Positions 1,095 to 28,048 are shown, numbered from the stretch's first letter. The stretch: DNA of 64,000 bases from a bacterium (GCA_030646995.1 JAUSKF010000006.1:99680-163679), one strand, 5' to 3'. Numbers and translations are program-made. Notes: generated from the letters alone by a model not told the origin.

Positions 1095-1207
1095 TATTCC
1101 GTCCGGCGAAAGCCGGATTTTTTATTATGGTAAACCCCCACACCAAACAAGGAGTTATACTTTCCGCTTTCTTGCTCCTTGTTGTGGTGTGGGGGTAAAA
1201 TTATTCA

Positions 1208-1654
1208 ATGATGGTAATCCCCGGAGTAGAAGGCGCCGATGCTGAATCAGTTAAGGCGCAATACGAAAAAGTTAAAGTAGTTTTGATTGAATGGGGCCAT
1301 GAAGTAGAGGACTGCGGTCCTTTTGAATATGACAACGATGATGATTATCCGGATTTCGTGATCCCAGTGGCAAAGGCGGTGGCGAAAGATAAAGAATCCC
1401 GCGGGATAGTATTCGGCGGATCCGGCCAAGGCGAAGCGATGGCGGCCAATCGTCAAAAAGGCATCCGGGCGGCGGTGTTTTATGGCGGTCCGGAGGATAT
1501 TATTTTGCTTTCCCGTATCCACAATAATTCCAACATTTTATCCATCGGCGCCCGTTTTATAGATGAGAAAGAAGCTTTGCGCGTCATTAAAATGTGGCTG
1601 GAAACCGAATTCGGCAAAGAAGAACGCCATCAGCGAAGGATCGAAAAATTTTAG
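1208..1654 (+). CDS. RpiB paralogue with rpe-derived N-terminus (chimeric; lacks N-terminal GxDHxG motif, possibly inactive)
   Basis: Residues 24-148 are ~85-90% identical to rpiB at 145..582, but the first 23 aa (MMVIPGVEGADAESVKAQYEKVK) match the N-terminus of Rpe at 4279; junction at the shared gaaaaagttaaag. Confidence 0.7.
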   Translation: MMVIPGVEGADAESVKAQYEKVKVVLIEWGHEVEDCGPFEYDNDDDYPDFVIPVAKAVAKDKESRGIVFGGSGQGEAMAANRQKGIRAAVFYGGPEDIILLSRIHNNSNILSIGARFIDEKEALRVIKMWLETEFGKEERHQRRIEKF

Positions 1655-1681
1655 CTCTATTTCAAGCTTTTTTATGAGGGC

Positions 1682-1711
1682 TTGACTTTTTAGGTCCTAC
1701 TATGCTATACT
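1682..1711 (+). promoter_or_regulatory. Sigma-70-like promoter upstream of DGR target gene (TTGACT-18-TATACT)
   Basis: ttgact at 1682-1687 and tatact at 1706-1711, about 80 nt upstream of the ATG at 1794. Confidence 0.5.
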
Positions 1712-1793
1712 TTCGACAGTTCCAGTCAAGGCAAGCTCTAGGTCTTGGCACATCGCCGCGATAAGGAGCAAGCCACAGAAAAAGGAGGGTCGT

Positions 1794-2420
1794 ATGTCCC
1801 AAAAGAGAAGTGAGTTTCTCGGGTCATTCGGCACCGCGTTCCAGGTTTTCAAGGCCCTGACGGACGAGGTGCTGGGTATGGGCGGCGGTGATGCTGACCT
1901 GCGTCGGATAGAGACCGACAAGGGTCTGCGTCAGAAGCTCGCCCAGCTGATCGTCGGCGTTCAGGAGAAGGCCGCGAACATCTTCAAGGTGATTGTGGAC
2001 TACTCGCTGTCGCTCGCCGACATGATCAAGCAGGTAAAGTCCGACTGGACAAACTCGGACATCACTGAGAGGCACTTCCCGCGCCCGTCGATCCCACGGG
2101 GCATCTCCAAGAAGGCGGAGGTGGCCTTGGAGCTGATACATTTCAACCGGAGTATCAGCTCTGACGATGCCATCGCCGAGCTCAAAAGGCTTGGCTACCG
2201 CCCCGCCACTATCTGGGAGCTCCTCGTTTTCGGGATGACCTATCCTGAAAAGCAGAGAGAATTCCCGATCGTGGCTCTCGGCTCGGTCTGGCGGCGCTGG
2301 GGTGGCTGCCGGGGCGTTGCCTATCTCTGGAGCTCTGCCGTCGGGCGGTACCTCTTTCTGGGTTGGTTCGAGGGCGGCTGGGTTGACGGCTATCGTTTCC
2401 TGGCCGTCCGCGAGTCTTAA
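1794..2420 (+). CDS. DGR target protein (variable protein with C-terminal CLec-type variable repeat)
   Basis: Strong RBS aaaaaggaggg; C-terminal 45 aa are encoded by the VR, which matches the downstream TR except at TR adenines; stop 7 nt after the VR end. Confidence 0.85.
   Translation: MSQKRSEFLGSFGTAFQVFKALTDEVLGMGGGDADLRRIETDKGLRQKLAQLIVGVQEKAANIFKVIVDYSLSLADMIKQVKSDWTNSDITERHFPRPSIPRGISKKAEVALELIHFNRSISSDDAIAELKRLGYRPATIWELLVFGMTYPEKQREFPIVALGSVWRRWGGCRGVAYLWSSAVGRYLFLGWFEGGWVDGYRFLAVRES
2276..2411 (+). repeat. DGR variable repeat (VR)
   Basis: 136-bp repeat aligned to TR 2697..2832 at offset 421; about 28 mismatches, every one at a TR adenine (A to G/T/C); the flanks gctcggtctggc, gttgcctatctctggagc and ctatcgtttcctggccgtccgc are identical. 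Confidence 0.9.
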
Positions 2421-2433
2421 CCGCCGGAGGCGG
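2421..2433 (+). promoter_or_regulatory. GC hairpin immediately 3' of VR (DGR cruciform/hairpin element)
   Basis: ccgcc-gga-ggcgg stem-loop 9 nt after the VR end and directly after the TAA stop, the position typical for the DGR hairpin. Confidence 0.5.
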
Positions 2434-2456
2434 TCAAAGACCCTTGGACCTATGCT

Positions 2457-2489
2457 CCGCAAGAGAAATCTCTTGCGGGGCTATTTTTA
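2457..2489 (+). terminator. Rho-independent terminator after DGR target gene
   Basis: ccgcaagaga-aat-ctcttgcgg perfect 10-bp stem followed by a T-run (gctattttt). Confidence 0.7.
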
Positions 2490-2696
2490 TAAACAAGAAA
2501 ATATTTTATAATTCAGAAAGACGAAACAGCCCGTGGCTACGGTTGCGGGCGGTCTGTAAGAAAATAAATAGACTCGGTGCCCTGCGCTAGGGAATTACAG
2601 ATTCCAAATGCGATACAATCCCGAGAGTATTCATCCCACACATAACAAGTTATGTGTGGGATTCAAAGGATGGTGGCTCAGGCGGCGCGGGGCACG

Positions 2697-2832
2697 AAAC
2701 GGCTCGGTCTGGCAGCACTGGAATGGCAACCGGAACGTTGCCTATCTCTGGAGCAATGCCGACAAGCGGAACCTCAATCTGAATTGGTTCGAGAACGACT
2801 GGAATGACAACTATCGTTTCCTGGCCGTCCGC
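2697..2832 (+). repeat. DGR template repeat (TR), noncoding template rich in AAC/AAT
   Basis: Counterpart of the VR; contains the adenines that are substituted in the VR; AAC-rich (NGNRN...SNADKRNLNLNWFENDWNDN in the VR frame); preceded by hairpin cccacacataacaagttatgtgtggg at 2635-2660. Confidence 0.9.
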
Positions 2833-2840
2833 TAGAATAT

Positions 2841-3182
2841 TTATTTTTTTAGCTGTTGTTTCCATCCCCCGATAATTTTGCCGATTTCGGCAAGGGGGAT
2901 AGAAATGACAGAGTATTTTTTATTATCCAAGGCTTTTATTTCCCAGGCGATCCGCAGAGACAGCTTGAGCAAGTCCAATTTTTGGCTGACTATTCTGATT
3001 GAATTACTCCGGCTTTCTTTTGAAGAGTAAATACTGAAATAAACAGCATCAACGAAATCCAGGAACTTCTCATCTATTTTGACGCCCAAGCTATAGCGAT
3101 GGAGTTTGGTGAGGTGCGGAAAATATCCGCTCCAAATTTTGTAGGCGTCAATGGATTTTTGTAAAACATCAATATGATCCAA
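2841..3182 (-). CDS. avd: DGR accessory variability determinant (Avd-like four-helix-bundle protein)
   Basis: 113 aa between TR and RT; C-terminal LAEIGKIIGGWKQQ resembles the Bordetella phage Avd C-terminus (AEVGRILGSWI) by recall; transcribed opposite to target, TR and RT; the start codon is uncertain because the first codon read from the displayed sequence is not a canonical start. Confidence 0.6.
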   Translation of the reverse strand: MDHIDVLQKSIDAYKIWSGYFPHLTKLHRYSLGVKIDEKFLDFVDAVYFSIYSSKESRSNSIRIVSQKLDLLKLSLRIAWEIKALDNKKYSVISIPLAEIGKIIGGWKQQLKK

Positions 3183-3191
3183 ATTCCGCCG

Positions 3192-3200
3192 GGGGGGGGG
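3192..3200. repeat. Poly-G (G9) homopolymer tract in the avd/RT divergent region
   Basis: Nine G at 3192-3200; lies between ATG 3174 and the RT frame; G8 would put ATG 3174 in frame with the RT. Confidence 0.9.
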
Positions 3201-3261
3201 CGTTATAGGTAGAACCCAATTCCGTCATAGTTTTGAGGATATTATTTCTGTTGAAAATCTT

Positions 3262-4188
3262 TTGGTTACTTGGCGGGAGTTCTTGAAAGGGAAGAGGGGA
3301 AAGAAAGACGTCCAGGAATTCGAGTTTAACTTGATGGATAATATTCTATCGCTTCACGAGGAGTTAGCAAGTCAGCAATACCGGCACGGTGGCTATTATC
3401 AATTCCGGATCGCCGATCCGAAACCCCGCATAATTCACAAGGCCGAAGTCAGGGATCGCCTAGCTCATCGCGCCATTCATAGATTACTATATCCGTTTTT
3501 TGATAAGACCTTCTTTGCCGACTCCTTTTCCTGCCGTGTCAAAAAAGGCACACACCGCGCGCTTAATCGTTTTCGGGCGATGGCTTATCAAGTCAGCCAA
3601 AACCATACCAAAACCTGCTGGGTGTTAAAATGCGATATCAAAAAGTTCTTTGATAGTATCAATCACGAAATTTTCCTGAAAATACTGAAAAAATATATCC
3701 CCAACCAGAAAATTATTTGGCTTTTGGAAAATGTCATAAATAGTTTCTCAACTAGATCGGGATTCGGCTTGCCTTTAGGCAATCTCACCTCCCAACTTTT
3801 CGCCAATATCTATTTAAATGAATTTGACCAGTTCGTGAAACACAAACTTAAAGTTAAGCATTACGTTAGATATGCGGATGATTTTGTAATTTTGTCAGGG
3901 GATAAACAGCAACTTGAATACCTAATTCCCAGAATCCAGGGCTTTCTCAAAGAAAATATTGGCCTCGTTTTACACCCGGACAAGCTTTTCCTGAAAACCT
4001 TTGCTATGGGGATGGATTTTCTCGGCTGGGTGCACTTTCCGGATCATCGAGTTCTGCGATCGGTTACTAAGCGGAAAATGTTTCGGAGGTTAAAAGAAAA
4101 TAACAACGAGCATTCCAGGCGGTCATATTTGGGGATGTTGAGGCATGGGAATACGGCTCTAATTAGCGGACAGGTCGTAAAGTTTTAA
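3262..4188 (+). CDS. DGR reverse transcriptase
   Basis: Motifs GNLTSQLFANIYLN and YADDFVIL closely resemble the Bordetella phage BPP-1 DGR RT as recalled (IGSLTSQLFANVY, YMDDIV); TTG start per the track; the RT frame is open from 3178 and the N-terminal homology (HSFEDIISVENLL) lies upstream of 3262 with no canonical in-frame start unless the G9 tract contracts. Confidence 0.9.
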   Translation: MVTWREFLKGKRGKKDVQEFEFNLMDNILSLHEELASQQYRHGGYYQFRIADPKPRIIHKAEVRDRLAHRAIHRLLYPFFDKTFFADSFSCRVKKGTHRALNRFRAMAYQVSQNHTKTCWVLKCDIKKFFDSINHEIFLKILKKYIPNQKIIWLLENVINSFSTRSGFGLPLGNLTSQLFANIYLNEFDQFVKHKLKVKHYVRYADDFVILSGDKQQLEYLIPRIQGFLKENIGLVLHPDKLFLKTFAMGMDFLGWVHFPDHRVLRSVTKRKMFRRLKENNNEHSRRSYLGMLRHGNTALISGQVVKF

Positions 4189-4278
4189 AAAAGGCATTCC
4201 TTATCCTGCTTACAAGTATCATACGACCGTACGATACTTGTAAGCAGGGCAGATGGATATATTTGCTAGAATTATCAA

Positions 4279-4932
4279 ATGGTAGTAATTCCCGGTATTG
4301 AGGGCGCGGATGCTGAGTCCGTCAAAGAGCAATATGAAAAAGTTAAAGATCTTAATCCAGAAGGCTGGGTGCATTTGGATATCACTGATGGGAAGTTTTC
4401 TCCGGCAGTGAATTGGGGCTCCCCCGCGGAGCTGTCTTCCCTAGTCGCTAGTCGTAAGTCGCTAAGTACTAAGTTTGAACTGCACTTGATGGTGGAAGAA
4501 GTGGAAAAAGTTCTGGATGGCTGGCTGAAGACCGGTTTAGTGAAGCGCGTCATCGTTCACCTTGAGGCGATGACCGATCCGGTATTTGTGGCGGCAAAAT
4601 GCAAAGAATATGGCGTTGAGCCAATGCTTTCAATCAAGCCGGAGACTGAAGTGGAGGGGTTGTTTGCCCACAAAGATGACTTCCGCTCTTTTCAGGTACT
4701 GGCGGTGGCTCCCGGTTGGGCGGGGCAGAAGTTTGGGGAGGAGGCTTTAAAGAAAATCGCATGGATAAGAGAAAAAATTCCGAATGCTATAATAGAAATA
4801 GACGGCGGAATTAATCCTGAAACCGCCCGTAAATGCTTTGAAGCGGGAGGGAGCGTGCTGGTTTCTACTTCTTATATCCAGAATAGCCCCGACCCCAAAG
4901 AAGCCTATAATTCGTTAGTCGTTAGTCGTTAG
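4279..4932 (+). CDS. rpe: Ribulose-phosphate 3-epimerase
   Basis: VHLDITDGKFSP, HLMV and IEIDGGINPET motifs of the Rpe TIM barrel; contains an internal tagtcg-type repeat insertion (LSSLVASRKSLSTK) and ends inside a heptamer tandem repeat. Confidence 0.85.
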   Translation: MVVIPGIEGADAESVKEQYEKVKDLNPEGWVHLDITDGKFSPAVNWGSPAELSSLVASRKSLSTKFELHLMVEEVEKVLDGWLKTGLVKRVIVHLEAMTDPVFVAAKCKEYGVEPMLSIKPETEVEGLFAHKDDFRSFQVLAVAPGWAGQKFGEEALKKIAWIREKIPNAIIEIDGGINPETARKCFEAGGSVLVSTSYIQNSPDPKEAYNSLVVSR

Positions 4933-4958
4933 TCGTTAGTCGTTAGTCGTTAGTCGTT
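4914..4958 (+). repeat. Heptanucleotide tandem repeat (GTTAGTC)x6 spanning the rpe stop and the rpe-tkt spacer
   Basis: Six perfect 7-bp units at 4914-4955 plus a degenerate unit; related degenerate copies at 4438-4470 (inside rpe) and 35323-35348 (inside pth). Confidence 0.9.
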
Positions 4959-4963
4959 ATCTT

Positions 4964-16092: not shown

Positions 16093-17559
16093 CTTTTCTA
16101 CGTGGTTAGAGCATCCGCCCCGTTTGATATTTCGAAATTTCGATATATTGATATCGGAACCTCGACCGGGGCGGGTGTTTTATTCAGTAGGCTCGCGGAA
16201 TTATCCGCAAGCGCTTCCGGAAAAACATGGCGACTTTGATAAGTGAATAGTTTCTTAAAAAAACTAGCATCTATTTTTTAAGAAGCGGCATCCTGAAAAG
16301 GAGATAGCTCCCGGTCGCGATGCTAGATATTTTCTTTCTAGCTCGAGGCGCGACGACGAAGGCGTGGTCTGTTCTACGCCAAGGAGGAGCAACAAAGAGA
16401 TAAAAGAAAATATCAGCATCCATTCGGTTGTTGCTAAAATTTCATATCGCTTTGTCATTCCTCCTAGCAATAGAATCTATTGCTGCGTCGTCATTTCTCG
16501 CGAATATAAAATTTTCGCTAACAACGCGACGGTGATTATCTCCTTTTTAGGATGCAAACCAAGAATCATATTTCGACGAGTCATTTCGGCTCGGTCGGAA
16601 ATCTACCAAAAGAGTCAAAAATTTTGTAGTTGTCCCAATTTATTCTTGTTTCGAGCAATGAGATAAAACTTATTGTTTGAAACTTATTAATGAGGATTTG
16701 ATCCTGGTCCAGGATGAACGCTGGCGGCGTGGATAAGGCATGCAAGTCGAACGGAATATTTTTTGAAGAAGTTGAGATTATATCAATGCAACGGATGAAA
16801 ATATTTAGTGGCGAACGGGTTAGTAACACCTTAGTACATACCTCAAAGTCGGGGATAGCCATTCGAAAGAGTGAGTAATACCCGATGGTCTCGCAAGAGT
16901 AAAGTCGCAAGACGCTTTGAGATTGGCTTAGGTCTGATCAGCTAGTTGGTGAGGTAATGGCTCACCAAGGCTATGACCAGTAGGGGGATTGAGAGATTGT
17001 TCCCCAACGAGGAAACTGAGACACGGTTCCTACTCCTACGGGAGGCAGCAGTCGAGAATATTCGACAATGGACGAAAGTCTGATCGAGCGACGCCGCGTG
17101 GAGGATGAAGGTCTTCGGATTGTAAACTCCTTTTCTACAGCAAAAAGTTATTGATTACTGTAGGAATAAGACGCTGCAAACTTCGTGCCAGCAGCCGCGG
17201 TAATACGAAGGCGTCAAGCGTTATCCGGATTTATTGGGTGTAAAGAGTGCGTAGGGGGTTTTGTGCGTCTGTTGTTAAATGTCACCGCTCAACGGTGTCG
17301 CTGCAATGGAAACGGCAGAACTAGAGGGGGCTAGAGGCTAATAGAACACATGGTGTAGGGGTGAAATCCGTTGATATCATGTGGAATACCAAAGGCGAAG
17401 GCATTTAGCTGGGGCCTTCCTGACCCTTAAGCACGAAAGCGTGGGGAGCAAAAAGGATTAGATACCCTTGTAGTCCACGCCCTAAACGATGCAGATTAGC
17501 TATTTCGAGTATCGACCCTCGGAGTGGCGTAGCTAACGCGTTAAATCTGCCACCTGGGA

Positions 17560-17591
<32 letters not shown>

Positions 17592-17715
17592 AGACGGGGA
17601 CTCGCACAAGCGGTGGAACATGAGGTTCAATTCGACGGTAAACGAAAAACCTTACCAGGGTTTGAAATGCACTTGAAGACCAGCAGAAACGTTGGTCGTC
17701 TCTCAAGGACAAGTG

Positions 17716-17747
<32 letters not shown>

Positions 17748-18065
17748 CTTTGAAGTGTTCCCTTAAGTGGGTTAACGAGCGCAACCCCTATCCTGTGTTT
17801 TATATGTCACAGGAGACCGCCGTGTTTAACACGGAGGAAGGCAGGGATGACGTCAAATCCGCATGGCCCTCTGATACCCTGGGCTACACTCGTGTTACAA
17901 TGGCCGGTACAATGGGCTGCCAAACCGCAAGGTGGAGCAAATCCCATCAAAACCGGCCCCAGTTCAGATTGGAGGCTGCAACTCGCCTCCATGAAGCCGG
18001 AATCGCTAGTAATCGTGGGTCAGCTATACCACGGTGAATACGTTCTCGAGTCCTGTACTCACAAG

Positions 18066-18925
18066 AATCGCGCACAGCAGGTTATGAAGCTAAGTCGTTC
18101 AAATCGACTCCTCCGAACGAGATCGGAGCGTAGCTGAAGGATAGTCGCCAATCGCGAGAGAGGCGGCAGAAGGATCCGAAAGCAAAGAGCAGTCCCGTTA
18201 AATCCGCCAGTTGGCGGACAGCCGCCGAGCCATGGTTGGGTGGTGAGCATGGCGAAGGCAAGTGCAAGCTGTAATGGGAATGTTCGGAAAAGTCTTATAA
18301 CTTACCTGTGGAGATCTGATATTGTCCTTGACGCAGCGTCAGGGTATAATGAAATTAACGCAATATCAGAAGTCAGCTGGGTCGTAGTATTCCGACGTAT
18401 AACGTCGGAGGAAGGACCCACTCAATGAAATGCTTACGAAAGATTACATAGTTGGTTTAGTAGATGGCGAAGGGAGCTTTACGGCTTACATTCGCGATCA
18501 AAGCAAGCCAACTAAGGTCAAAAGGAGAGTTAAGGTAGAGCCAAGGTTTTATCTGAAGCTAATCGAGAAAGATAAACCAGTACTAGATGAGTTAAAGAAA
18601 TTCTTTAATTGTGGGAATGTCTATTTTCAAAAAGACAATCGCGCAAATCATCAGCATTGCTATCGCTTCGAAGTAGCCAACAGGAAAGACCTTACTGAAA
18701 TAATTATTCCGTTTTTCAAGGAAAATCAATTGAAGTTCCCTTCCAAAAGAAAGGATTTCAAGATTTTCTGCGATTTAATGAGGAGGATTAATAAAGGCGA
18801 ACACTTAACTTCGGAAGGCTTGAGTAATCTTTATAGGATTAAGCAGCAAATGCATTGAGCTCGCGTAGTGCGGGAAATCCGCTCGCTACGTGGGAACATC
18901 AATTCTTTATTTCAAAGAAAATAAT
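18066..18925 (+). mobile_element. Intron/insertion in 16S rRNA carrying a LAGLIDADG homing endonuclease gene (boundaries approximate)
   Basis: 16S homology breaks after ...cctgtactcacaag at about 18065 and resumes at cgcccgtca at 18926; aatcgc is present at both borders. Confidence 0.75.
18430..18858 (+). CDS. LAGLIDADG homing endonuclease (intron-encoded)
   Basis: IVGLVDGEGSF motif; 142 aa; lies inside the 16S insertion. Confidence 0.85.
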   Translation: MLTKDYIVGLVDGEGSFTAYIRDQSKPTKVKRRVKVEPRFYLKLIEKDKPVLDELKKFFNCGNVYFQKDNRANHQHCYRFEVANRKDLTEIIIPFFKENQLKFPSKRKDFKIFCDLMRRINKGEHLTSEGLSNLYRIKQQMH

Positions 18926-21516: not shown

Positions 21517-23232
21517 ATGGTCCAAATCCCCGACGATAAATTAAAAGAGATATTGGTAAAAGACGGCGTAGTAAGCGCCGCTGATTTTGATTCGGTAGCC
21601 AAAGATTCTAAGAGAATGGGGCAATCGGTGGCGCAGATTTTGGTTTCGAGAAATTTCATTAAGCCAGGATACTACAACGGATTGTTGGCTAAATATTTTG
21701 GCGTGGAGCCGGCGAATCTTTCTAGTCAGACAATTGATGAGGCGGCGTTGCGCTTATTAACCGAAGACCTCGCTCGCCAGAAAAAAGCAGTTATTTTTAA
21801 GCGCGACGAAGACGGGGCTTTGAATGTGGCGATGAGTGATCCGACTGACCTCGCTACGATTGAATTTCTCGCAAGCCGACTAGGCGCGCGCATCAAGCCA
21901 TATTTGGCCACCGATGAAGATTTGAAAAAGGGTTTTGCTGTTTATGGCAGAAAATCGGCGGATGACTTCCGGAAGATTATTGAGGAAAATGTGCAGGCAA
22001 CTTTGCGCGCCGAAATAGGTGGAAAGGTGGAGAAAGATGCGGCGCAAGAAGTGCCAGTGGTGGCTATCGTGGATAACTTGGTTTCTTATGCAATCGCCAC
22101 GCGAGCTTCCGATATTCACATAGAAATCTTGGAAGACGCAGTGTTGGTGCGCTATAGGATTGACGGCATTTTGCATGAAATTAGTAAAATTCCGAAAGAA
22201 GTTCATTCATCAATTTTAGCGAGGCTGAAATTGCTGGCTGGTCTACGCCTCGACGAACATTCCAAGCCGCAAGACGGACGCTTCCGCTATCAAGCGGGTG
22301 GGGATTTGATTGATATCCGCGTTTCAGTGATACCGACTTTTTACGGAGAAAAAGTGGAGATGCGCTTGCTTTCATCCACTACCCGCGCGCTTTCTTTTGA
22401 GGAGCTTGGAATGTTGCCGGACACGATTAAAACTATTCAGGAAAATACTTCTAAGACTTACGGCATTGTGTTGGTTACCGGTCCGACCGGTTCTGGAAAA
22501 AGTACCACGATTTATTCAATGTTGAGTGTTTTAAACAAACCAGAAGTGAATATTTCTACCATTGAAGATCCGGTTGAGTACGATATGAAATATATTAACC
22601 AGACGCAGGTGAATGAGGCAGCAGGCATTACTTTTGCGAATGGTTTGCGGGCGCTCCTTCGCCAAGACCCGAATATCATAATGGTGGGTGAGGTGCGCGA
22701 CGGTGAGACGGCGGAAATCGCCGTGCAGGCGGCCTTAACCGGTCACTTGGTGCTTTCAACTTTACACACCAACGATGCCGCTTCCGCTATTCCACGCTTG
22801 TTTGATTTGAAAGTAGAGCCATTTTTGGCGGCGGCGGTTTTAAATGCGATTCTTGCTCAGCGTTTGGTGCGGCAGATTTGCCCTGACTGCATTCAGTCTT
22901 ATCCGGTCACTCCAGAAATTGTGAAGATTATTCAGGGCCAGTTTAAGTCATTGGGTATTGAAGGGGAGTATAAGCCGCCGAGGGCAATGTTTAAGGGAAA
23001 GGGTTGCGCTACTTGTGGGAACATTGGCTACAAGGGGCGAATCGCTATTTTTGAAGCTTTCAGCGTGGATGAATCTTTGCGTAATCAAATCGTGGATTCT
23101 AAATTCACTTTGGACCTATTAAGGAAAGAGCTCCGGAAAAAAGGATATGTGACGATGTTTGAAGATGGGTTGCGGAAAGTTGCCAAGGGTATGACCACGA
23201 TTGAGGAGGTGTTGCGCGTTATTAGAGAATAG
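21517..23232 (+). CDS. pilB: Type IV pilus assembly ATPase PilB (GspE family)
   Basis: Walker A GPTGSGKST, Asp box, Walker B and CxxC...CxxC tetracysteine (CPDC...CATCG). Confidence 0.9.
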   Translation: MVQIPDDKLKEILVKDGVVSAADFDSVAKDSKRMGQSVAQILVSRNFIKPGYYNGLLAKYFGVEPANLSSQTIDEAALRLLTEDLARQKKAVIFKRDEDGALNVAMSDPTDLATIEFLASRLGARIKPYLATDEDLKKGFAVYGRKSADDFRKIIEENVQATLRAEIGGKVEKDAAQEVPVVAIVDNLVSYAIATRASDIHIEILEDAVLVRYRIDGILHEISKIPKEVHSSILARLKLLAGLRLDEHSKPQDGRFRYQAGGDLIDIRVSVIPTFYGEKVEMRLLSSTTRALSFEELGMLPDTIKTIQENTSKTYGIVLVTGPTGSGKSTTIYSMLSVLNKPEVNISTIEDPVEYDMKYINQTQVNEAAGITFANGLRALLRQDPNIIMVGEVRDGETAEIAVQAALTGHLVLSTLHTNDAASAIPRLFDLKVEPFLAAAVLNAILAQRLVRQICPDCIQSYPVTPEIVKIIQGQFKSLGIEGEYKPPRAMFKGKGCATCGNIGYKGRIAIFEAFSVDESLRNQIVDSKFTLDLLRKELRKKGYVTMFEDGLRKVAKGMTTIEEVLRVIRE

Positions 23233-23409: not shown

Positions 23410-23443
23410 ATTACTGTGGATAAGACCTCAATACCCCCCCCTC

Positions 23444-23513: not shown

Positions 23514-23524
23514 GGGGGGGGGGG
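23514..23524. repeat. Poly-G (G11) tract inside the signal-peptide coding region of the giant surface-protein gene
   Basis: Eleven G; ATG 23491 (MRFFRFPSGGG...) is out of frame with the 1496-aa ORF at G11 and in frame at G10. Confidence 0.9.
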
Positions 23525-23557: not shown

Positions 23558-26500
23558 TTGGTTTCTCCAAGTCATTTATTTGCCAGAGAAACTATTGTTG
23601 CGGTTCCGGTAATTAACCCGTCTGTCATTGCGAGCGAGGCAAAGCAATCTAACACCATCATCGCCAGGTCAGTTGAGGTTTATCCCACCGCCAATCTTTT
23701 TGATAGTTTTCTTAGCGTTTTTCAAAATATTAGGGAATCGATACAGAATTTTGCTGTATCACTAATTAACCTAGCCAATCCCAAAGTTCCGGTAAGTACC
23801 ACTCCTCCACCCATACGAATTGTTGCTGTTCCCGTGTCTGCGACGCCCCCGGCTCCATCTGTCATTGCGATCCGCCAGCCGGCGGAGAAGCAATCTAACA
23901 TTGATGTGGTAAAATCCGTCTCCGCCCCCACGCCGCAGATAATATATATCCAACAACCTGCTCCGACCGGTACCGTAGGAGTCTCTTCCCAGTCCCAGTT
24001 AGATTCTTTGACTGCTGACCTGCTCGCCTTCAAAAAATCTCAGCAGGCCACGACCGAAAATCTGCAATACAATATGGGTCTAATGAGCCGCATCAGCTCT
24101 CTCGGCCCAGTCGGCAGCAATCCTCTTACAATTTCCAATCCAACATTCGCCGGATCTATTACGGGCATTGAAGACGGCGATATTCCCGACGACATCACCG
24201 CTTCCAATTACCTTTTGCGCGCCGGAGGTGAGCTCAGCGGCAACCTCACTATCGCGGGTAATCTCACAGTTGCCGGCGCGCAAATTTTGGGGGGAGGTGG
24301 TGGTTCCAATCCTTTTAGCCTTGGCGGCTCCTCCGCGCAGGGGACTTTAATTTTGGGAAATGGCACCACTGCTTCTTCTACGATTTCCGGCGAATACGGC
24401 AGGTTAGGTTTTGGTTCCACTTCTCCTTATGCCCAATTCTCCATTGAGGCCGTCCAGGGCGTAGTCGGTTCTTCCACCCCCGTCTTCGTTATCGGAGACA
24501 CAGGCTCTTCTTCTCTGCTCGTTGTCTCCGGAATCAATGGAGACGTCGGCATTGGCACCAATACTCCCGGAGCCAAATTGGATGTGGGAGGCTTTGCGAA
24601 TATCAAGGGGAATCTGAATATCTCCGCTACCTCCACTGCCGGTTCCTTTGTCGCCACTTCCACTTTGAGTGTCGGAACTTCAACTCCCGGAACGAATACC
24701 CAGCTGACGGTCCAGGGCAACTCCTATTTTACGGACGGATTATCTGTTGGCATCGCCGCCACAACTACCTCTGGATCCATCGCCAGCATTTTGCAATCGG
24801 CTGGAACTTTCTACGGCTCCGGAGTCGGCACTTCCTCATTTGAAGGAGGTATCAATGTGAAAGCCAACGGGGGAATTACTTCGGCTTCGGGATTAATCGT
24901 ATCGGCGGGAAAAGTTGGTATTGGAACGACGAATCCGTCGACGGTTTTAGATGTTCTGACGCCTGGTGGCTACCGATTGCTTTTCACGGACGACGCCAGC
25001 GCTTTCCAGATAACGGGTGTGAACTCGGGTATTACTGATAACGTTCCCTTGAGGATACAGGGTACTGATTTACGTTTTTATACAAATAGTGGTGGAGCGC
25101 AGGAACGACTTCGCATAACAACAGCTGGCAATGTTGGTCTTGCCCGAACCAGCCCAGATACTCTTCTTGATCTCGGGCGGGCGGGCGACGTGACCACTCG
25201 AGATTTAAATATTATTGGCTCTGACTTGAATATCGGCAACGGCATCCTCGCTACCTCCACTCTTTCGGGAGAATATGGAAAACTCGGTCTCGCTTCCACT
25301 ACTCCCTGGGGTCAGTTCTCCATTGAAGTCTCCGGAGTTCCCGGCTCCACCACTCCCGTATTCGTTATCGGCGACTCCGGCACCTCTTCCCCAATCTTCA
25401 TCGCCAACGTCAATGGAAGAATCGGTATCGCCACCAACACCGTGGATCAATATGGAGTTCTGGGTATCGGATTATCTGTGGCAACCTCCACATACATTGA
25501 AGGAGGATTGGGAGTGGGCGTTGCTACTTCTTCTGCCGGCGGTTTGTTCGTCAAAGGATCTGCAGATATTTATGGCGGACTAATTGTACGTGGCGGTAAA
25601 GTGGGCATTGGTACGACAAATCCGGGGTCAATATTAGAACTTAATTCTAATGAGCCAGTATTGCGAATGACAACCGGTGCGCCCGGAGGACAGTGGGATC
25701 TTATTGGCGGCAATGGGGTCGGTGTAGCCGTTGGTGATTTTGTTATTTTCAATGCTGGATACGGCAACACACCGTTTAGGATCATAAACGACGCAGGAAA
25801 CTTGAATAATAATGCGTTTATAATAAAAGGTGGCAATATCGGTATCGCTACTACCGTTCCAGGAACAAAATTGGACGTCCACGGCTTCGCCAATGTCGCC
25901 GGTAATTTAACTGTTTCTGCTACGACTACCACCGGATCCCTGATTGCCACCTCTACTTTAAGCGTAGGCACTTCCACGCCCGACTCCTTAGTTCAGTTCG
26001 CAGTTGGTGGAAATTCATATTTATCCGGCGGTCTTTCCGTCGGTCGCTCCGCGACGACTACCAACGGCGCCTTGATGGCGGGAGCTATTGATGGCACCAC
26101 TTTGAATCTCTCCGGCCGATTGGATTCAATCTTTACCGGCACCTCCACATTTGCGGGAGGGGTTTCTGTCGCCGGATTGGCTTCATCAAATGGATTGAAT
26201 GTAACAGCAGGAGATTCAGTTATCGGTCCGCTAAAAGTTGGGACGGCGGCGATTACGTCGACGGTGAGATTTTTTGGCGCTGACGGATCGACAGCCGCCC
26301 CCACATACGGATTTTCGTCCCGTACCGATGCTGGTATGTATAACGTTGGTAACGGGGAAATTGGGTTGGTCGGACAAGGCTCTCTGGAGGTTCGCATTTC
26401 ATCGGGGTCGGTTCAGATTGGGTCGGGAACCTTTTTGAATTTCGGGGGCACCACCGGATGGAAATATATCGCCGCTGCAAATATTCGGCAGGGAAACTCC

Positions 26501-28048
26501 TCCTCCGCCACCCCCATCGACCAGATATTCACCCTCGGCGAAGCGAGCAGGCCGGGGACGGATACTAACATTAGTGGTGCGACTGGAACGATTCAGAGCG
26601 GTCTAGGCACTGGGATTGGAACTGAATCATCGCTTATTTTTCAGACTCCAACATTGGCCGCTTCGGGTAGCGGAGTACAAACGTATGCAACGAGATTGAC
26701 TGTCGGTTCGGCAACTTCAACCTTCACGGGAGCCTTAACTGTGGGTGGTAGCGTCGGCATCGGCACCACGACCCCACGGGCAATGTTAGGTATCGCGGCG
26801 GGTAGCTCCACTCCCGGCCTTATGATTCAGACCGAGGGCAATACCGGGCAGGGAGCAATAGCAATCGTTGTCGATGCAAATGCTAACTGTAAAGACGGAG
26901 AATCAAACGGGGCCTGCGCTCTGAACGACTTGGCTGAGTTGTATCCAGTGTCCGAACCTCTGGAGAAGGGAGATATCGTGATGTTTGATGGTGGAGCGCC
27001 CGTTCATATAAAGAAAGCGACTAGTCGGAATAGTTTAGCTGGCGCAATCTCTACTTCTCCGGCCATCGTCTTTGAAGGCTCGATGATCAAAACAATGGGT
27101 GGAGTTTACGAGTGGAAAGGGAATACCGCTCCCCTCGCTCTTTCCGGTCGTGTGCCGGTGAAGGTTTCTCTAGAAAATGGCCCAATTCATATTGGCGATC
27201 CGATAACCGTGTCTTCTACTACTCCGGGCGTTGGCGTTAAAACCATCACCTCCGGCAAGATTATCGGTTATGCCCTTGATGATTTGCTAACCGCCACTAC
27301 TGCTCCAAATTCTTTTGATAAAATCCTCGTTTTCGCCAATCTCTCGCATTGGCAAAATCCGGATGAAATCTTAGAACCGTCTTCAACGTTTATTCAGAAA
27401 ATTATTGAGGCAATAACTGACTGGCTAAAGACTGCCGTTGTTACCATTAAAGAATTAGTCGTTGATAAGCTGACGAGCAAAGAAGTTAATACCGATAAAC
27501 TTTGTGTCGGCGCCACCTGCATTACCGAGAATCAACTGCAGGCATTGCTAAACCAAAATTTACCCGTCGCGGCGGGTGTGAACGGCGGAAATAGTCCTCC
27601 TCCCGCGCCATCGCCAACTCCCGCTCCTGAATCGGCCCCCGACACCGATGCGCCGGTGATTACTTTGAACGGATTGAATCCGACCGAGATTGAAATAGGA
27701 GCGGTATATTCGGATATGGGCGCCAATGTTACCGACAACGTAAACAGCAATCTTGGTTATAAGGTCAGCTTGGATGGTGGCCCGGAAACCTACCCCCAAG
27801 AGATGGAATTGGATACTTCCATGGCTGGCGAACATATCCTAATTTTTATTGCGATTGACCAAGCGGGGAATCGCGGAACCGCCTCAAGAGTAGTGAGGGT
27901 TGTGAATCCGAACGCTCCTAGCCCAGAACCGGAACCTAGCCCTTTTCCGGAACCCAGCCCCACCCCCGAACCTTCTCCAGCTCCCGAGCCATCCCCAACT
28001 CCTAGTCCCGCTCCCGAACCCATTCCTGCGCCCGAACCCGAACTTTAG
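23558..28048 (+). CDS. Giant secreted/surface protein (1496 aa) with fibre-like Gly/Thr/Ser repeats, Ig-like domain and Pro-rich C-terminal tail; probably phase-variable
   Basis: TTG start per the track and no in-frame ATG for about 170 codons; repeated KVGIGTTNP..L(D/E) units; region resembling the C-terminal modules of phage tail fibres (family not identified); C-terminal PEPSPTPEP repeats; located inside the type IV pilus locus. Confidence 0.75.
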   Translation: MVSPSHLFARETIVAVPVINPSVIASEAKQSNTIIARSVEVYPTANLFDSFLSVFQNIRESIQNFAVSLINLANPKVPVSTTPPPIRIVAVPVSATPPAPSVIAIRQPAEKQSNIDVVKSVSAPTPQIIYIQQPAPTGTVGVSSQSQLDSLTADLLAFKKSQQATTENLQYNMGLMSRISSLGPVGSNPLTISNPTFAGSITGIEDGDIPDDITASNYLLRAGGELSGNLTIAGNLTVAGAQILGGGGGSNPFSLGGSSAQGTLILGNGTTASSTISGEYGRLGFGSTSPYAQFSIEAVQGVVGSSTPVFVIGDTGSSSLLVVSGINGDVGIGTNTPGAKLDVGGFANIKGNLNISATSTAGSFVATSTLSVGTSTPGTNTQLTVQGNSYFTDGLSVGIAATTTSGSIASILQSAGTFYGSGVGTSSFEGGINVKANGGITSASGLIVSAGKVGIGTTNPSTVLDVLTPGGYRLLFTDDASAFQITGVNSGITDNVPLRIQGTDLRFYTNSGGAQERLRITTAGNVGLARTSPDTLLDLGRAGDVTTRDLNIIGSDLNIGNGILATSTLSGEYGKLGLASTTPWGQFSIEVSGVPGSTTPVFVIGDSGTSSPIFIANVNGRIGIATNTVDQYGVLGIGLSVATSTYIEGGLGVGVATSSAGGLFVKGSADIYGGLIVRGGKVGIGTTNPGSILELNSNEPVLRMTTGAPGGQWDLIGGNGVGVAVGDFVIFNAGYGNTPFRIINDAGNLNNNAFIIKGGNIGIATTVPGTKLDVHGFANVAGNLTVSATTTTGSLIATSTLSVGTSTPDSLVQFAVGGNSYLSGGLSVGRSATTTNGALMAGAIDGTTLNLSGRLDSIFTGTSTFAGGVSVAGLASSNGLNVTAGDSVIGPLKVGTAAITSTVRFFGADGSTAAPTYGFSSRTDAGMYNVGNGEIGLVGQGSLEVRISSGSVQIGSGTFLNFGGTTGWKYIAAANIRQGNSSSATPIDQIFTLGEASRPGTDTNISGATGTIQSGLGTGIGTESSLIFQTPTLAASGSGVQTYATRLTVGSATSTFTGALTVGGSVGIGTTTPRAMLGIAAGSSTPGLMIQTEGNTGQGAIAIVVDANANCKDGESNGACALNDLAELYPVSEPLEKGDIVMFDGGAPVHIKKATSRNSLAGAISTSPAIVFEGSMIKTMGGVYEWKGNTAPLALSGRVPVKVSLENGPIHIGDPITVSSTTPGVGVKTITSGKIIGYALDDLLTATTAPNSFDKILVFANLSHWQNPDEILEPSSTFIQKIIEAITDWLKTAVVTIKELVVDKLTSKEVNTDKLCVGATCITENQLQALLNQNLPVAAGVNGGNSPPPAPSPTPAPESAPDTDAPVITLNGLNPTEIEIGAVYSDMGANVTDNVNSNLGYKVSLDGGPETYPQEMELDTSMAGEHILIFIAIDQAGNRGTASRVVRVVNPNAPSPEPEPSPFPEPSPTPEPSPAPEPSPTPSPAPEPIPAPEPEL

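What the first reader, a model, noticed from the sequence alone, without database searches (positions are those of the whole stretch)
1682..4188. Complete diversity-generating retroelement (target with VR, TR, Avd, RT) inserted in a pentose-phosphate gene cluster
Read directly from the sequence, the VR (2276-2411) and TR (2697-2832) are 136 bp long and identical except at about 28 positions. Every one of those positions is an adenine in the TR. Flanking blocks of 11 to 22 bp are perfectly conserved. The TR is rich in AAC/AAT codons when read in the VR frame, and a GC hairpin (ccgccggaggcgg) follows the VR. The downstream ORF carries the DGR-type RT signature (SQLFANIY and YADDF blocks, similar to the BPP-1 bRT as recalled). 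A 113-aa Avd-like ORF lies between the TR and the RT. The element sits between carbohydrate-metabolism genes (rpiB and rpe). Its target is a small (208 aa) cytoplasmic-looking protein with no signal peptide.
Basis: partly seen in the sequence, partly recalled or inferred. Interest (0 to 1): 0.8.

Follow-up and report, generated by a model that had tools for sequence, protein, structure and literature searches.

The report
Diversity-generating retroelement in a Patescibacteria genome
This is a genuine diversity-generating retroelement, a reverse-transcriptase cassette that rewrites the tip of one small lectin-fold protein at template adenines; it belongs to a class already known to be common in Patescibacteria, so the element itself is ordinary, though its relatives share an undescribed G-repeat and RNA domain.

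Summary
VR (2276/2279-2411) and TR (2697/2700-2832) are collinear. All 102 non-adenine TR positions are identical, and all 28 differences fall on TR adenines. The RT's best solved relative is the Bordetella phage DGR RT (E 9e-45). The 113-aa ORF passes Pfam bAvd, but it lies on the minus strand. The 208-aa target has no sequence-family hit, yet its model gives C-type-lectin-fold matches. The order target-TR-(avd)-RT is the published "B3" architecture, and about 94 related Patescibacteria loci share the divergent avd/RT arrangement. This is therefore a new member of a known kind.

There are caveats. As assembled, the RT has no ATG/GTG/TTG upstream of its conserved N-terminus. No population data could be found, so current activity is unproven.

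Two family-wide features surfaced that I found no description of. First, a G7-G14 tract (G10 at 3191-3200), or a GT/GA repeat, sits in the overlapping 5' ends of avd and RT in about 85% of relatives. In the window, G9 or G12 would restore ATG-initiated ORFs for both genes. Second, a covariation-supported RNA domain of about 120 nt lies 5' of the TR, and a helix joins its 5' edge to the sequence just 3' of the TR.

The parts
1682..1711 (+). Promoter-like site upstream of the target gene (TTGACT, 18-nt spacer, TG-TATACT)
   Evidence: Best sigma-70-type match in 1600-4300: 10 of 12, with an extended -10 TG. This is a consensus match only.
1794..2420 (+). Target gene, 208 aa: an N-terminal three-helix region (about residues 2-60) followed by a C-type-lectin-fold domain (about 63-208) whose last ~45 residues are the VR
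2279..2411 (+).
   Evidence: 133-bp core with 25 differences from the TR, or 28 if 2276-2278 are included. All are at TR adenines.
2390..2411 (+). IMH-like invariant GC-rich 3' block of the VR (CTATCGTTTCCTGGCCGTCCGC). VR and TR diverge from 2412/2833 onward (G versus T).
   Evidence: Read from the alignment. Function inferred by analogy with the Bordetella phage IMH/IMH* (PMC5758913).
2421..2433 (+). Short GC hairpin after the VR (CCGCC-GGA-GGCGG)
   Evidence: Sequence and fold. Relatives instead carry a long segmented hairpin with CTTGG motifs at this place.
2454..2488 (+). Terminator-like hairpin plus T-run that ends the target transcript
   Evidence: 12-bp stem with 8 GC pairs and a TATTTTT tail.
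2557..2570 (+). P0 5' strand (A-rich, TAAGAAAATAAATA) of the TR RNA; pairs with 2838-2851
   Evidence: Inverted repeat I11. MFE fold of 2554-2905. Covariation across 67 loci: 87.6% paired versus 76% in shuffles and 46-57% when slid; 64 double-change cells versus 19. Cognate versus non-cognate duplex energies, permutation p<=0.0005.
2572..2577 (+). Near-invariant junction motif ACUUGG (ACUCGG in the window) between P0 and P1
   Evidence: Nearly invariant columns of alignment A2. A priming role is speculation.
2577..2695 (+). Structured RNA domain 5' of the TR. P1 is 2577-2588/2684-2695, P2 is 2591-2605, P3 is 2618-2626/2663-2671. A window-specific extra 14-bp hairpin (2633-2662) is inserted in the P3 loop.
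   Evidence: nhmmer finds the element in 86 loci, upstream of the TR on the RT strand in 85 of them. RNAalifold gives 22 pairs, 20 with compensatory changes. 96.7% of cells are paired versus 77% shuffled and 32-52% slid; 389 double-change cells versus 106. No Rfam 15 family matches.
2700..2832 (+).
   Evidence: Adenines are confined to codon positions 1 and 2 of the VR frame.
2838..2851 (+). P0 3' strand (U-rich, TATTTATTTTTTTA) immediately after the TR
2864..2900 (+). Two-part hairpin on the TR strand inside antisense avd. It may substitute for the GC hairpin plus U-run that most relatives have right after the TR and that the window lacks.
   Evidence: MFE fold. Comparison of TR 3' flanks. 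Function inferred by analogy with the 'Avd-binding stem-loop'.
2841..3182 (-). avd accessory gene, 113 aa from TTG 3182. It would start at ATG 3228 if the G tract were G9 or G12.
   Evidence: PF22296 bAvd 2e-10, 41.5 bits against a cutoff of 40. NF033474 DivGenRetAVD 1.6e-14, below its cutoff. phrog_3206 'Avd protein of DGR' 4.4e-10. Frame simulation.
3191..3200 (.). G10 homopolymer in the overlapping 5' regions of the divergent avd and RT genes
   Evidence: The same position carries G7-G14 in 76 of 94 related loci, and (GT)n, (GA)n or C8 in six more. It is one of only three G/C runs of 7 or more in the 64-kb window.
3178..4188 (+). Reverse transcriptase reading frame (336 codons open). The first canonical start in frame is TTG 3262, which would remove the conserved FEDIISVENLL N-terminus. 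ATG 3174 is in frame only with G9 or G12.
   Evidence: Translation. PF00078 6.9e-25. PDB 8ub7_A E 9.3e-45, aligned from query residue 15. phrog_1423 1e-104. Relatives start at MKIQL.H.FEDII upstream of the point matching 3262. Simulation.

Best explanation
The region 1682-4188 is a chromosomal diversity-generating retroelement of the Patescibacteria (CPR) type, with the cassette order target-TR-(avd)-RT.

Proposed mechanism:
1. A non-coding RNA is transcribed from the + strand. It spans a 5' structured domain (2557-2695), the TR (2700-2832) and a short U-rich 3' flank (2838-2851) that pairs back to the 5' edge, so the TR is held as a closed loop.
2. The RT (frame 3178-4188), together with Avd (2841-3182, minus strand), copies the TR into cDNA and misincorporates opposite adenines.
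3. The cDNA replaces the VR (2279-2411). This recodes up to about 21 codons in the ligand-binding face of the C-lectin-fold domain of the 208-aa target. That target has no signal peptide and is probably cytoplasmic.

What is shown: the adenine-only VR/TR differences, the family identities of RT and Avd, the predicted fold of the target, the conserved RNA structure, and the recurrence of the whole arrangement in about 94 loci.

What is inferred: the reverse-transcription and homing steps (by homology with the Bordetella phage DGR), the limits of the RNA, and the target's location.

The VR has clearly been rewritten in the past. Whether the element is active now is open, because the assembled G10 tract leaves the RT without a canonical start ahead of its conserved N-terminus.
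For: - VR/TR: 28 of 28 differences are at TR adenines and 102 of 102 non-A positions are identical. TR adenines occur only at codon positions 1 and 2.
- RT: the best solved relative is the Bordetella phage DGR RT (8ub7_A, E 9e-45). The next hits, retron-type and group II intron RTs, are at 1e-20. The motif LPLGNLTSQLFANIY aligns with IPIGSLTSQLFANVY. phrog_1423 scores 1e-104.
- Avd: above the Pfam bAvd gathering score and matches PHROG 'Avd protein of DGR'.
- Recurrence: about 30 related loci have VR/TR pairs with A-dominated mismatches and the same gene order. 94 loci have divergent Avd(-)/RT(+).
- Architecture: TR-(avd)-RT is catalogued as B3 (PMC5758913). CPR targets lacking TM or signal peptides are reported (PMC8144416).
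- RNA: the flanking structure is supported by covariation, and the window's own sequence folds into it.
Against: - No ATG, GTG or TTG lies in the RT frame between the upstream stop (3175-3177) and TTG 3262. In most relatives the start is an ATG about 8 codons before FEDII, where the window has GGT.
- The window lacks two elements most relatives have: the GC hairpin plus U-run right after the TR, and the long segmented hairpin after the VR.
- Avd is below NCBIfam's equivalog cutoff (54 versus 80 bits).
- There is no sequence-level match of the target to any lectin or FGE family.
- No population or strain variants of this VR could be retrieved, so ongoing diversification is not demonstrated.
Confidence: 0.88

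Rival explanations
1. It is a fossil DGR. The cassette diversified the VR in the past but is now inactive, because the RT has lost its start codon and the RNA and target-site hairpins have been deleted. On this view the VR is frozen.
For: - The RT lacks a canonical start ahead of its conserved N-terminus.
- The post-TR hairpin and the segmented post-VR hairpin found in most relatives are missing.
- Many target homologs in other genomes stand without an adjacent RT.
- L052, L061 and L065 carry only RT fragments next to a target homolog, so decay does occur in this family.
Against: - The RT frame is open for 336 codons and Avd is intact.
- The RNA helices P0-P3 are all preserved in the window.
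- L009 and L023 also lack the post-TR hairpin yet show 17-23 A-specific VR/TR differences.
- About 21 of 76 relatives likewise lack an RT ATG after the tract, which suggests non-canonical or tract-dependent initiation rather than death.
- One G fewer restores ATG starts for both genes.
Confidence: 0.2
2. The G tract has nothing to do with translation frames. It is a non-coding feature of the avd/RT divergent promoter or 5' UTRs (a spacer, a protein site, or a G-rich structure). Avd starts at a TTG/GTG just after it, and the RT at its own start.
For: - 41 of 76 tract loci, including the window (TTG 3182), have an in-frame TTG/GTG between the tract and Avd helix 1.
- Most relatives have an RT ATG downstream of the tract.
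- The fraction with the upstream ATG in frame (20 of 76) is about the 1/3 expected if frame were irrelevant.
- L019 and L147 have G-rich but non-repetitive sequence at this place.
Against: - 34 of 76 loci have no ATG/GTG/TTG between the tract and the conserved helix-1 motif, and 26 of these also have the upstream ATG out of frame.
- Loci without any repeat have the upstream ATG in frame in 9 of 9 cases (Fisher p=2e-5).
- Different repeat types (G)n, (GT)n, (GA)n and C8 occupy the same site. That argues for length instability rather than a specific sequence.
Confidence: 0.4
3. It is not a DGR. The downstream repeat is a decayed duplicate of the target's 3' end, and the RT belongs to a group II intron, a retron or a defence RT that happens to lie nearby.
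For: - NCBIfam's best-scoring model for the RT is group_II_RT_mat (147 bits). This is far below its cutoff of 300, and no DGR RT model appeared among the ten hits.
- A group II intron domain hit exists elsewhere in the window, at 18350.
Against: - Ordinary divergence cannot put 28 of 28 differences on adenines of one copy.
- The RT is 24 orders of magnitude closer to the DGR RT than to group II or retron RTs in PDB.
- Avd is present.
- No intron RNA domains or retron msr/msd were found by Rfam in 1650-4300.
- The arrangement is conserved in about 94 loci.
Confidence: 0.01

Closest known systems
Bordetella phage BPP-1 DGR (mtd-avd-TR-brt)
   Same: - Adenine-specific VR/TR differences.
- An RT with the LGxxxSQ motif (E 9e-45 to bRT).
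- The Avd accessory protein.
- A VR at the C-terminus of a C-lectin-fold target.
- A GC-rich invariant block at the VR/TR 3' end followed by a hairpin.
- A duplex between sequences upstream and downstream of the TR, analogous to the 'cPRT Stop' duplex (bioRxiv 10.1101/2023.10.23.563531).
   Different: - avd is on the opposite strand, between TR and RT.
- The large structured RNA lies 5' of the TR, not 3' as the BPP-1 spacer 'Sp' does.
- The downstream strand of the enclosing duplex starts only about 5 nt after the TR. That leaves no room for a BPP-1-like fold-back primer strand between them.
- The target is a small, apparently cytoplasmic cellular protein, not a phage tail fibre.
- There is a homopolymer tract at the avd/RT junction.
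CPR/Patescibacteria DGRs (Paul et al. 2017; 'CPR set' and architecture B3 TR-(avd)-RT of Wu et al. 2018, PMC5758913; DGR clade 2 of Roux et al. 2021, PMC8144416)
   Same: - The host group, judged from the names of homologous loci.
- The gene order and the antisense avd.
- A target without TM segment, signal peptide or known domain.
- A VR type that sequence methods cannot assign to a lectin family.
   Different: Nothing tested differs. RT-tree placement in clade 2 was not computed here. The G-tract and the 5' RNA domain are not mentioned in the papers I could read. Paul et al. 2017 was not available.
Retron ncRNA (a2-branching G-msr-msd-a1)
   Same: Topology only. A terminal helix pairs the 5' edge with the sequence just 3' of the template. 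It is followed on the 5' side by a conserved G-containing junction and a structured domain, and then by the template. The comparison with retrons rests on my own knowledge.
   Different: - The RT is not of the retron clade.
- No msr/msd Rfam hit.
- Priming from the junction is untested.
- The product is used for homing into a VR, not kept as msDNA.
Simple-sequence-repeat contingency loci (for example Neisseria, Haemophilus and Campylobacter phase-variable genes)
   Same: - A homopolymer or dinucleotide repeat sits near the 5' end of a coding region.
- Repeat length differs among relatives (G7-G14).
- About two thirds of assembled alleles are out of frame.
- A second G11/C8 pair lies upstream of a 1496-aa ORF in the same window.
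   Different: - No within-population length variation has been observed here.
- The controlled gene would be a mutagenesis factor rather than a surface antigen.
- The tract lies in two overlapping divergent genes at once.

Membership tests
Diversity-generating retroelement (DGR) | A TR/VR repeat pair whose differences fall (almost) only on adenines of the TR | tested here: met
   28 of 28 differences are at TR adenines and there are 0 differences at the 102 non-A positions.
Diversity-generating retroelement (DGR) | An RT of the DGR clade (motif 4 [I/L/V]GxxxSQ; closest to bRT rather than to group II or retron RTs) | tested here: met
   8ub7_A E 9.3e-45 against 1.4e-20 or worse for retron-type and group II RTs. 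LPLGNLTSQLFANIY is present. No explicit phylogeny was built.
Diversity-generating retroelement (DGR) | The VR lies at the 3' end of a protein-coding target, in a C-type-lectin (or Ig) fold that tolerates variation | tested here: met
Diversity-generating retroelement (DGR) | The accessory variability determinant (Avd) or another accessory gene | tested here: met
   PF22296 bAvd 41.5 bits against a cutoff of 40. phrog_3206 4.4e-10. The NCBIfam equivalog is below its cutoff, 54 versus 80 bits.
Diversity-generating retroelement (DGR) | IMH at the VR 3' end, distinct from IMH* at the TR 3' end, with a downstream inverted repeat | tested here: inconclusive
   A GC-rich invariant 22-bp block is followed by divergence from 2412/2833, and by the hairpin at 2421-2433. 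Function cannot be tested in silico.
Diversity-generating retroelement (DGR) | An intact, translatable RT gene | tested here: inconclusive
   The frame is open for 336 codons, but there is no ATG/GTG/TTG before TTG 3262. ATG 3174 is in frame only with G9 or G12.
Diversity-generating retroelement (DGR) | Ongoing VR hypervariation in the population at TR-adenine positions | not testable with these tools
   There is no read access. The exact-pattern scan of metagenome contigs for VR variants found 0, and the exact target protein is on record nowhere else.
CPR DGRs, architecture B3 TR-(avd)-RT (Wu et al. 2018) | Order TR, then avd on the reverse strand, then RT, with the target upstream | tested here: met
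   Coordinates. The same order is seen in about 35 genome loci, and the divergent avd/RT pair in 94 loci in all. Definition from PMC5758913.
CPR DGRs, clade 2 (Roux et al. 2021) | The RT branches within the Patescibacteria-restricted clade | not tested
   Indirect only. Most loci holding homologs are labelled Patescibacteria/CPR lineages, and the target lacks TM, signal or known domains as reported for that clade.
SSR-mediated phase-variable gene | The repeat lies within the coding region or promoter, and its length varies within populations, switching expression | tested here: inconclusive
   Position and between-species length variation are shown. A near-identical strain pair, L083/L084, differs by a 2-nt indel at the tract. 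Within-population variation is not testable here.

The most novel reading that the evidence does not exclude
The conserved G7-G14 tract (or a GT/GA repeat) is embedded in the antisense-overlapping 5' ends of avd and RT. The most novel reading is that it is a slipped-strand (or slippage/frameshift-dependent) ON/OFF switch for mutagenic retrohoming. In the window, G10 is OFF and G9 or G12 is ON for both genes at once. Only a subpopulation would then hypermutate its target, while the rest keep an adapted VR. A second unexcluded reading concerns the RNA. This DGR family appears to use a permuted DGR RNA in which the protein-binding or priming domain lies 5' of the TR and is brought to the TR 3' end by helix P0. 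That topology resembles a retron.
Probability: 0.35. Interest if true: 0.72.

Novelty: new member of a known kind. Interest (0 to 1): 0.42.

Why it matters
As a DGR, the locus adds one more example to a class already known to be abundant in Patescibacteria. Its value lies mostly in annotation: four 'hypothetical' features become a target, TR RNA, Avd and RT.

The comparative work it prompted may matter more. How DGRs limit their own activity, so that a useful variant is not overwritten, is unresolved. A repeat tract gating Avd, and in some loci the RT, would be a simple and testable answer. The covariation-supported RNA domain 5' of the TR gives a defined RNA for biochemical work on DGRs whose avd is antisense. 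The Bordetella phage model, with its spacer RNA 3' of the TR, cannot apply unchanged to those. The large family of about 200-aa lectin-fold targets without signal peptides also bears on the open question of whether CPR DGRs diversify intracellular binding proteins.

Tried and rejected
- Second VRs: I searched both strands of the window for further VRs, using full-length and 45-nt sub-windows that ignore A positions. None was found.
- Target sequence family: Pfam, NCBIfam, PHROGs and PDB sequence searches gave nothing. Only the fold search was informative.
- Avd against PDB by sequence: no meaningful hit.
- Same strain elsewhere: the exact protein is not on record. The closest homolog's contigs end just after the target gene. 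An exact-pattern scan of metagenome contigs, with N at every TR adenine, gave 0 hits. Population variation of this VR therefore could not be assessed.
- Sequencing artefact for the G10 run: rejected, because the tract recurs at the same site in 76 independent assemblies.
- 'Avd has no start in 65 of 76 loci': corrected after checking further downstream. 41 of 76 have a TTG/GTG before helix 1, 34 have none, and 26 have neither that nor an in-frame upstream ATG.
- G-quadruplex reading of the tract: considered unlikely as a general explanation, because (GT)n, (GA)n and C8 occupy the same site in some relatives.
- Rfam at gathering and E<=1 thresholds: no family covers the TR-flanking RNA.
- Literature: searches for homopolymer or phase variation with DGR, and for covariation with template repeat, found no description of either feature. 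Paul et al. 2017 could not be read, so prior mention there cannot be excluded.
- Recent-insertion reading: weakened. The flanking 82-bp repeats are only 79% identical, and related DGRs also neighbour rpiB or tkt genes.


Full report
**1. The observation**

At an offset of 421 bp, window 2276-2411 aligns without gaps to 2697-2832. The two copies differ at 28 positions. At every one the downstream copy has A (17 A>G, 9 A>T, 2 A>C). All 102 non-adenine positions are identical.

The tool-independent repeat call is 2279-2414 / 2700-2835. The three 5'-most differences (AAA versus TCT at 2697-2699 / 2276-2278) lie at the edge of homology, so the secure core is 133 bp with 25 differences.

28 of the 34 TR adenines are changed. 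In the reading frame of the upstream ORF the TR adenines sit only at codon positions 1 and 2 (12 and 19; none at position 3), and the TR has five AAC and five AAT codons. The last 22 bp (2390-2411) are GC-rich and invariant. The copies diverge from 2412/2833, and CCGCC-GGA-GGCGG follows at 2421-2433. No other copy of the repeat, with A positions ignored, exists in the 64 kb.

**2. The proteins**

*RT.* The RT frame is open from 3178 to 4188. Its best solved relative is 8ub7_A, the Bordetella phage DGR RT, at E 9.3e-45. Retron-type and group II intron RTs follow at 1e-20 or worse. The alignment starts at residue 15 of the open frame and includes LPLGNLTSQLFANIY aligned with IPIGSLTSQLFANVY. PHROG 1423 scores 1e-104 and Pfam RVT_1 6.9e-25. 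NCBIfam returned no DGR-RT family; the top hit, group_II_RT_mat, is far below its cutoff.

*Avd.* The 113-aa ORF is on the minus strand (2841-3182). It passes Pfam bAvd (41.5 bits against 40), matches PHROG 'Avd protein of DGR', and is below the NCBIfam equivalog cutoff.

*Target.* The target (1794-2420, 208 aa) hits nothing by sequence. It has 322 homologs of about 200 aa; the few that carry a source name are from uncultured bacteria, mostly Patescibacteria. These share a conserved core (...RPATLxELLAFGAxYPExQREFPIVALGSVW...RFLAVRK) and a C-terminus that varies exactly where the TR has adenines.

The protein has an N-terminal three-helix segment and no hydrophobic stretch; the highest 19-residue Kyte-Doolittle mean is 1.17. 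A strong promoter-like site (1682-1711) precedes the gene, and a terminator-like hairpin (2454-2488) follows it.

**3. Relatives and what is already known**

A scan of one genome per species with the target alignment returned 80 loci, most of them labelled as Patescibacteria (CPR) lineages. About 35 of these have the same order: target(+), TR(+), avd(-), RT(+). About 30 have VR/TR pairs whose differences are (almost) all at TR adenines, mostly A>G. A metagenome scan with the RT found more than 579 relatives. In total, 94 loci have the divergent Avd/RT pair.

- Wu et al. 2018 list this order as architecture B3, 'TR-(avd)-RT', and treat 126 CPR DGRs as a separate set with mostly unclassifiable VRs (PMC5758913).
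- Roux et al. 2021 describe a Patescibacteria-restricted DGR clade. Its targets typically lack transmembrane, signal or known domains, and the authors leave open whether these are truly non-membrane proteins (PMC8144416).

This is a new member of a known kind.

**4. Departures of the window's copy from its relatives**

- *RT start.* Most relatives start the RT at ATG in the sequence M-K-I-Q-L-x-H-x-F-E-D-I-I. The window has G-R-T-Q-F-R-H-S-F-E-D-I-I with no ATG/GTG/TTG until TTG 3262, which would delete the conserved N-terminus. About 21 of 76 relatives also lack an ATG there.
- *Post-TR hairpin.* Most relatives have a GC hairpin plus U-run 10-15 nt after the TR, and it covaries (for example L083 versus L084). 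The window, L009 and L023 lack it. The window has a different two-part hairpin 30 nt further on (2864-2900).
- *Post-VR hairpin.* After the VR, relatives have a long segmented hairpin built of 5-6-bp helices separated by TT/TT loops with repeated CTTGG. The window has only the short GC hairpin and one GACCCTTGGACC.

These differences keep a 'fossil' reading alive (confidence 0.2). Against it, L009 and L023 still show 17-23 A-specific differences, and all RNA helices are intact in the window.

**5. The G tract (outside the original finding)**

G10 at 3191-3200 lies between the divergent avd and RT starts. The same site carries G7-G14 (mode G10) in 76 of 94 related loci. It carries (GT)n in four more, (GA)n in one and C8 in one. 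It is one of only three G/C runs of 7 or more in the window. In 1.15 Mb of related loci, 88 of 90 runs of 8 or more are G on the RT strand.

In loci with no repeat, the avd ORF starts at an ATG that is the antisense of the RT's conserved His-7 codon, and it is in frame in 9 of 9 cases. In repeat-bearing loci the corresponding ATG is in frame in 20 of 76. It needs the loss of one nucleotide in 38, and another shift in 17 (Fisher p=2e-5 and chi-square p=0.006).

A first count overstated the absence of alternative starts. Counting as far as the conserved Y-x-x-W of Avd helix 1:
- 41 of 76 loci have an in-frame TTG/GTG after the tract (the window has TTG 3182).
- 34 have none.
- 26 have neither that nor an in-frame upstream ATG.

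In the window, G9 or G12 makes both the RT (ATG 3174: MIQIPPGGGVIGRTQFRHSFEDII...) and avd (minus-strand ATG 3228: MTELGSTYNAPPRRNLDHIDVLQK...) full-length ATG-initiated ORFs. G8, G10 and G11 truncate both.

The near-identical strains L083 and L084 (97.8% identity) differ by a 2-nt indel at the tract.

This fits a repeat-length (or slippage/frameshift) switch on Avd, and in some loci on the RT. A purely non-coding role is not excluded (confidence 0.4). I found no paper describing the tract, but Paul et al. 2017 was unavailable.

**6. The TR RNA (outside the original finding)**

The roughly 120 nt upstream of the TR are conserved in 86 loci, in 85 of them on the RT strand.

*Core domain.* On 75 sequences RNAalifold predicts 22 pairs, 20 of them with compensatory changes. 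96.7% of cells are paired, against 77% in shuffles and 32-52% with slid partners. There are 389 double-change cells against 106. In the window:
- P1 is 2577-2588 / 2684-2695.
- P2 is 2591-2605.
- P3 is 2618-2626 / 2663-2671.
- An extra perfect 14-bp hairpin (2633-2662) is inserted in the P3 loop.

*Enclosing helix.* An A-rich strand just 5' of a near-invariant ACUUGG (window 2557-2570, with ACUCGG at 2572-2577) pairs with the U-rich stretch that begins about 5 nt after the TR (2838-2851). On a composite alignment of 67 loci this helix (P0) is 87.6% paired, against 76% shuffled and 46-57% slid, with 64 double changes against 19. Cognate 5'/3' partners bind better than non-cognate ones (p<=0.0005). 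The window's own 352-nt RNA folds into P0, P1, P2 and the hairpins (z = -4.8). No Rfam 15 family matches.

*Comparison with BPP-1.* Handa et al. (bioRxiv 10.1101/2023.10.23.563531) showed that in the Bordetella phage RNA an upstream:downstream duplex ('cPRT Stop') and an Avd-binding stem-loop flank the TR. They predicted such elements in 207 DGRs, using 40 nt upstream and 100 nt downstream of the TR. P0 and the post-TR hairpin are the likely counterparts here. But the 5' strand of P0 is about 125 nt upstream of the TR, and a three-helix domain lies between them. In BPP-1 the large structured RNA (Sp), including the priming A56, is 3' of the TR (PMC6182149). The arrangement here is permuted. 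In outline it resembles a retron ncRNA: terminal helix, conserved G-containing junction, structured domain, then template. That comparison and any priming role of the junction are inference only.

**7. Genomic context**

Two rpiB-like genes precede the element (88-582 and 1208-1654). The second has lost the N-terminal MKIYLGGDHAG and instead begins with the first ~23 codons of rpe. The 82 bp at 1196-1277 and 4267-4348 are direct repeats at 79% identity, and they bracket rpiB' plus the DGR.

Related DGRs also lie next to rpiB (L063), after rpiB-rpe-tktN-tktC (L052) or between tktN and tktC (L152). The neighbourhood may therefore be old rather than a fresh insertion.

The two RT relatives closest to the window (80-81% identity, L083/L084) carry a different TR and a different target C-terminus, so targets are exchanged between RT/avd modules.

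**8. Verdict**

This is a real and complete-looking DGR of the known CPR/B3 type (confidence about 0.88). Its current activity is undetermined. Interest in the element itself is low to moderate. The family-wide repeat tract and the 5' RNA domain are the parts worth following up.

Noticed in passing
window 3191-3200; related loci L007-L160 at the avd/RT junction: A G7-G14 homopolymer sits in the overlapping 5' ends of divergent avd and RT in 76 of 94 related DGR loci. (GT)n, (GA)n or C8 occupy the same site in six more. Many assembled alleles leave avd out of frame with its upstream ATG. In the window, G9 or G12 would restore ATG starts for both avd and RT. This may be a phase-variation or frameshift switch of the DGR.
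   Followed up: yes
window 2557-2695 and 2838-2851; alignments A2 and A3: An RNA domain of about 120 nt lies 5' of the TR. It has three covarying helices, a near-invariant ACUUGG junction, and a helix (P0) joining its 5' edge to the U-rich sequence just after the TR. It is found in 86 loci and is absent from Rfam 15. The window has an extra 14-bp hairpin (2633-2662) inserted in one loop.
   Followed up: yes
related loci, 0-80 nt after the VR (e.g. L012 6622-6680, L030 3723-3780, L019 6205-6260): Downstream of the VR stop codon most relatives have a long segmented hairpin: 5-6-bp GC-rich helices separated by TT/TT internal loops, with repeated CTTGG. This is the same pentamer as the junction motif of the TR RNA. 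The window keeps only GACCCTTGGACC (2439-2450) and a short GC hairpin. It may be the target-recognition structure of this family.
   Followed up: partly
window 1196-1654 and 4267-4348: The second rpiB-like gene (1208-1654) is a hybrid. Its first ~23 codons, and 12 nt upstream of them, copy the start of rpe (82-bp direct repeat, 79% identity). It lacks the N-terminal GGDHAG segment of the first rpiB. The two repeats bracket rpiB' plus the whole DGR.
   Followed up: partly
window 23434-23441 (C8) and 23514-23524 (G11): The only other long G/C runs in the window lie 80 nt apart in the intergenic region. They are downstream of a GspE/PilB-like ATPase ORF (21517-23232; named from its sequence, no family search was run) and upstream of a 1496-aa repeat-rich ORF (23558-28048). 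This may be a second repeat-controlled gene.
   Followed up: no
window 4912-4960 and 4438-4458: A tandem heptanucleotide repeat (GTCGTTA, about 7 copies) forms the 3' end of rpe and its stop region. A degenerate copy (TAGTCGCTAGTCGTAAGTCGCTAAG) lies inside rpe, where it encodes an insert.
   Followed up: no
window 4205-4248: A 21-bp near-perfect inverted repeat (CCTGCTTACAAGTATCATACG / CGTACGATACTTGTAAGCAGG) lies 17 nt after the RT stop and just before the rpe-start repeat. It has no T-run. It may be a terminator or an element boundary.
   Followed up: no
L083 1-800 and L084 1900-3000: The RTs closest to the window's (80-81% identity, Hainich groundwater contigs) share its avd/RT junction sequence (CGTTATAGGTAGAA). 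They carry a different TR and a different target C-terminus, so targets are swapped between RT/avd modules. The two strains differ by a 2-nt indel at the G tract and by compensatory changes in the post-TR hairpin.
   Followed up: partly
L052 2654-6776, L063 3796-5073, L152 425-4934: Related DGRs or target genes also sit beside pentose-phosphate genes: after rpiB-rpe-tktN-tktC, after rpiB, and between tktN and tktC. L052, L061 and L065 have only RT fragments next to the target homolog.
   Followed up: partly
loci L003-L082: About half of the genomic loci that encode a homolog of the target have no RT or Avd within 6 kb, and some genomes have tandem paralogs (L023, L036, L043, L066). These may be remote targets, relics, or non-diversified family members.
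   Followed up: no
window 16686-18114 and 18350-18417: A bacterial 16S rRNA gene is followed about 240 nt later by a weak hit to group II intron domains D1-D4 (35.4 bits, at the threshold).
   Followed up: no
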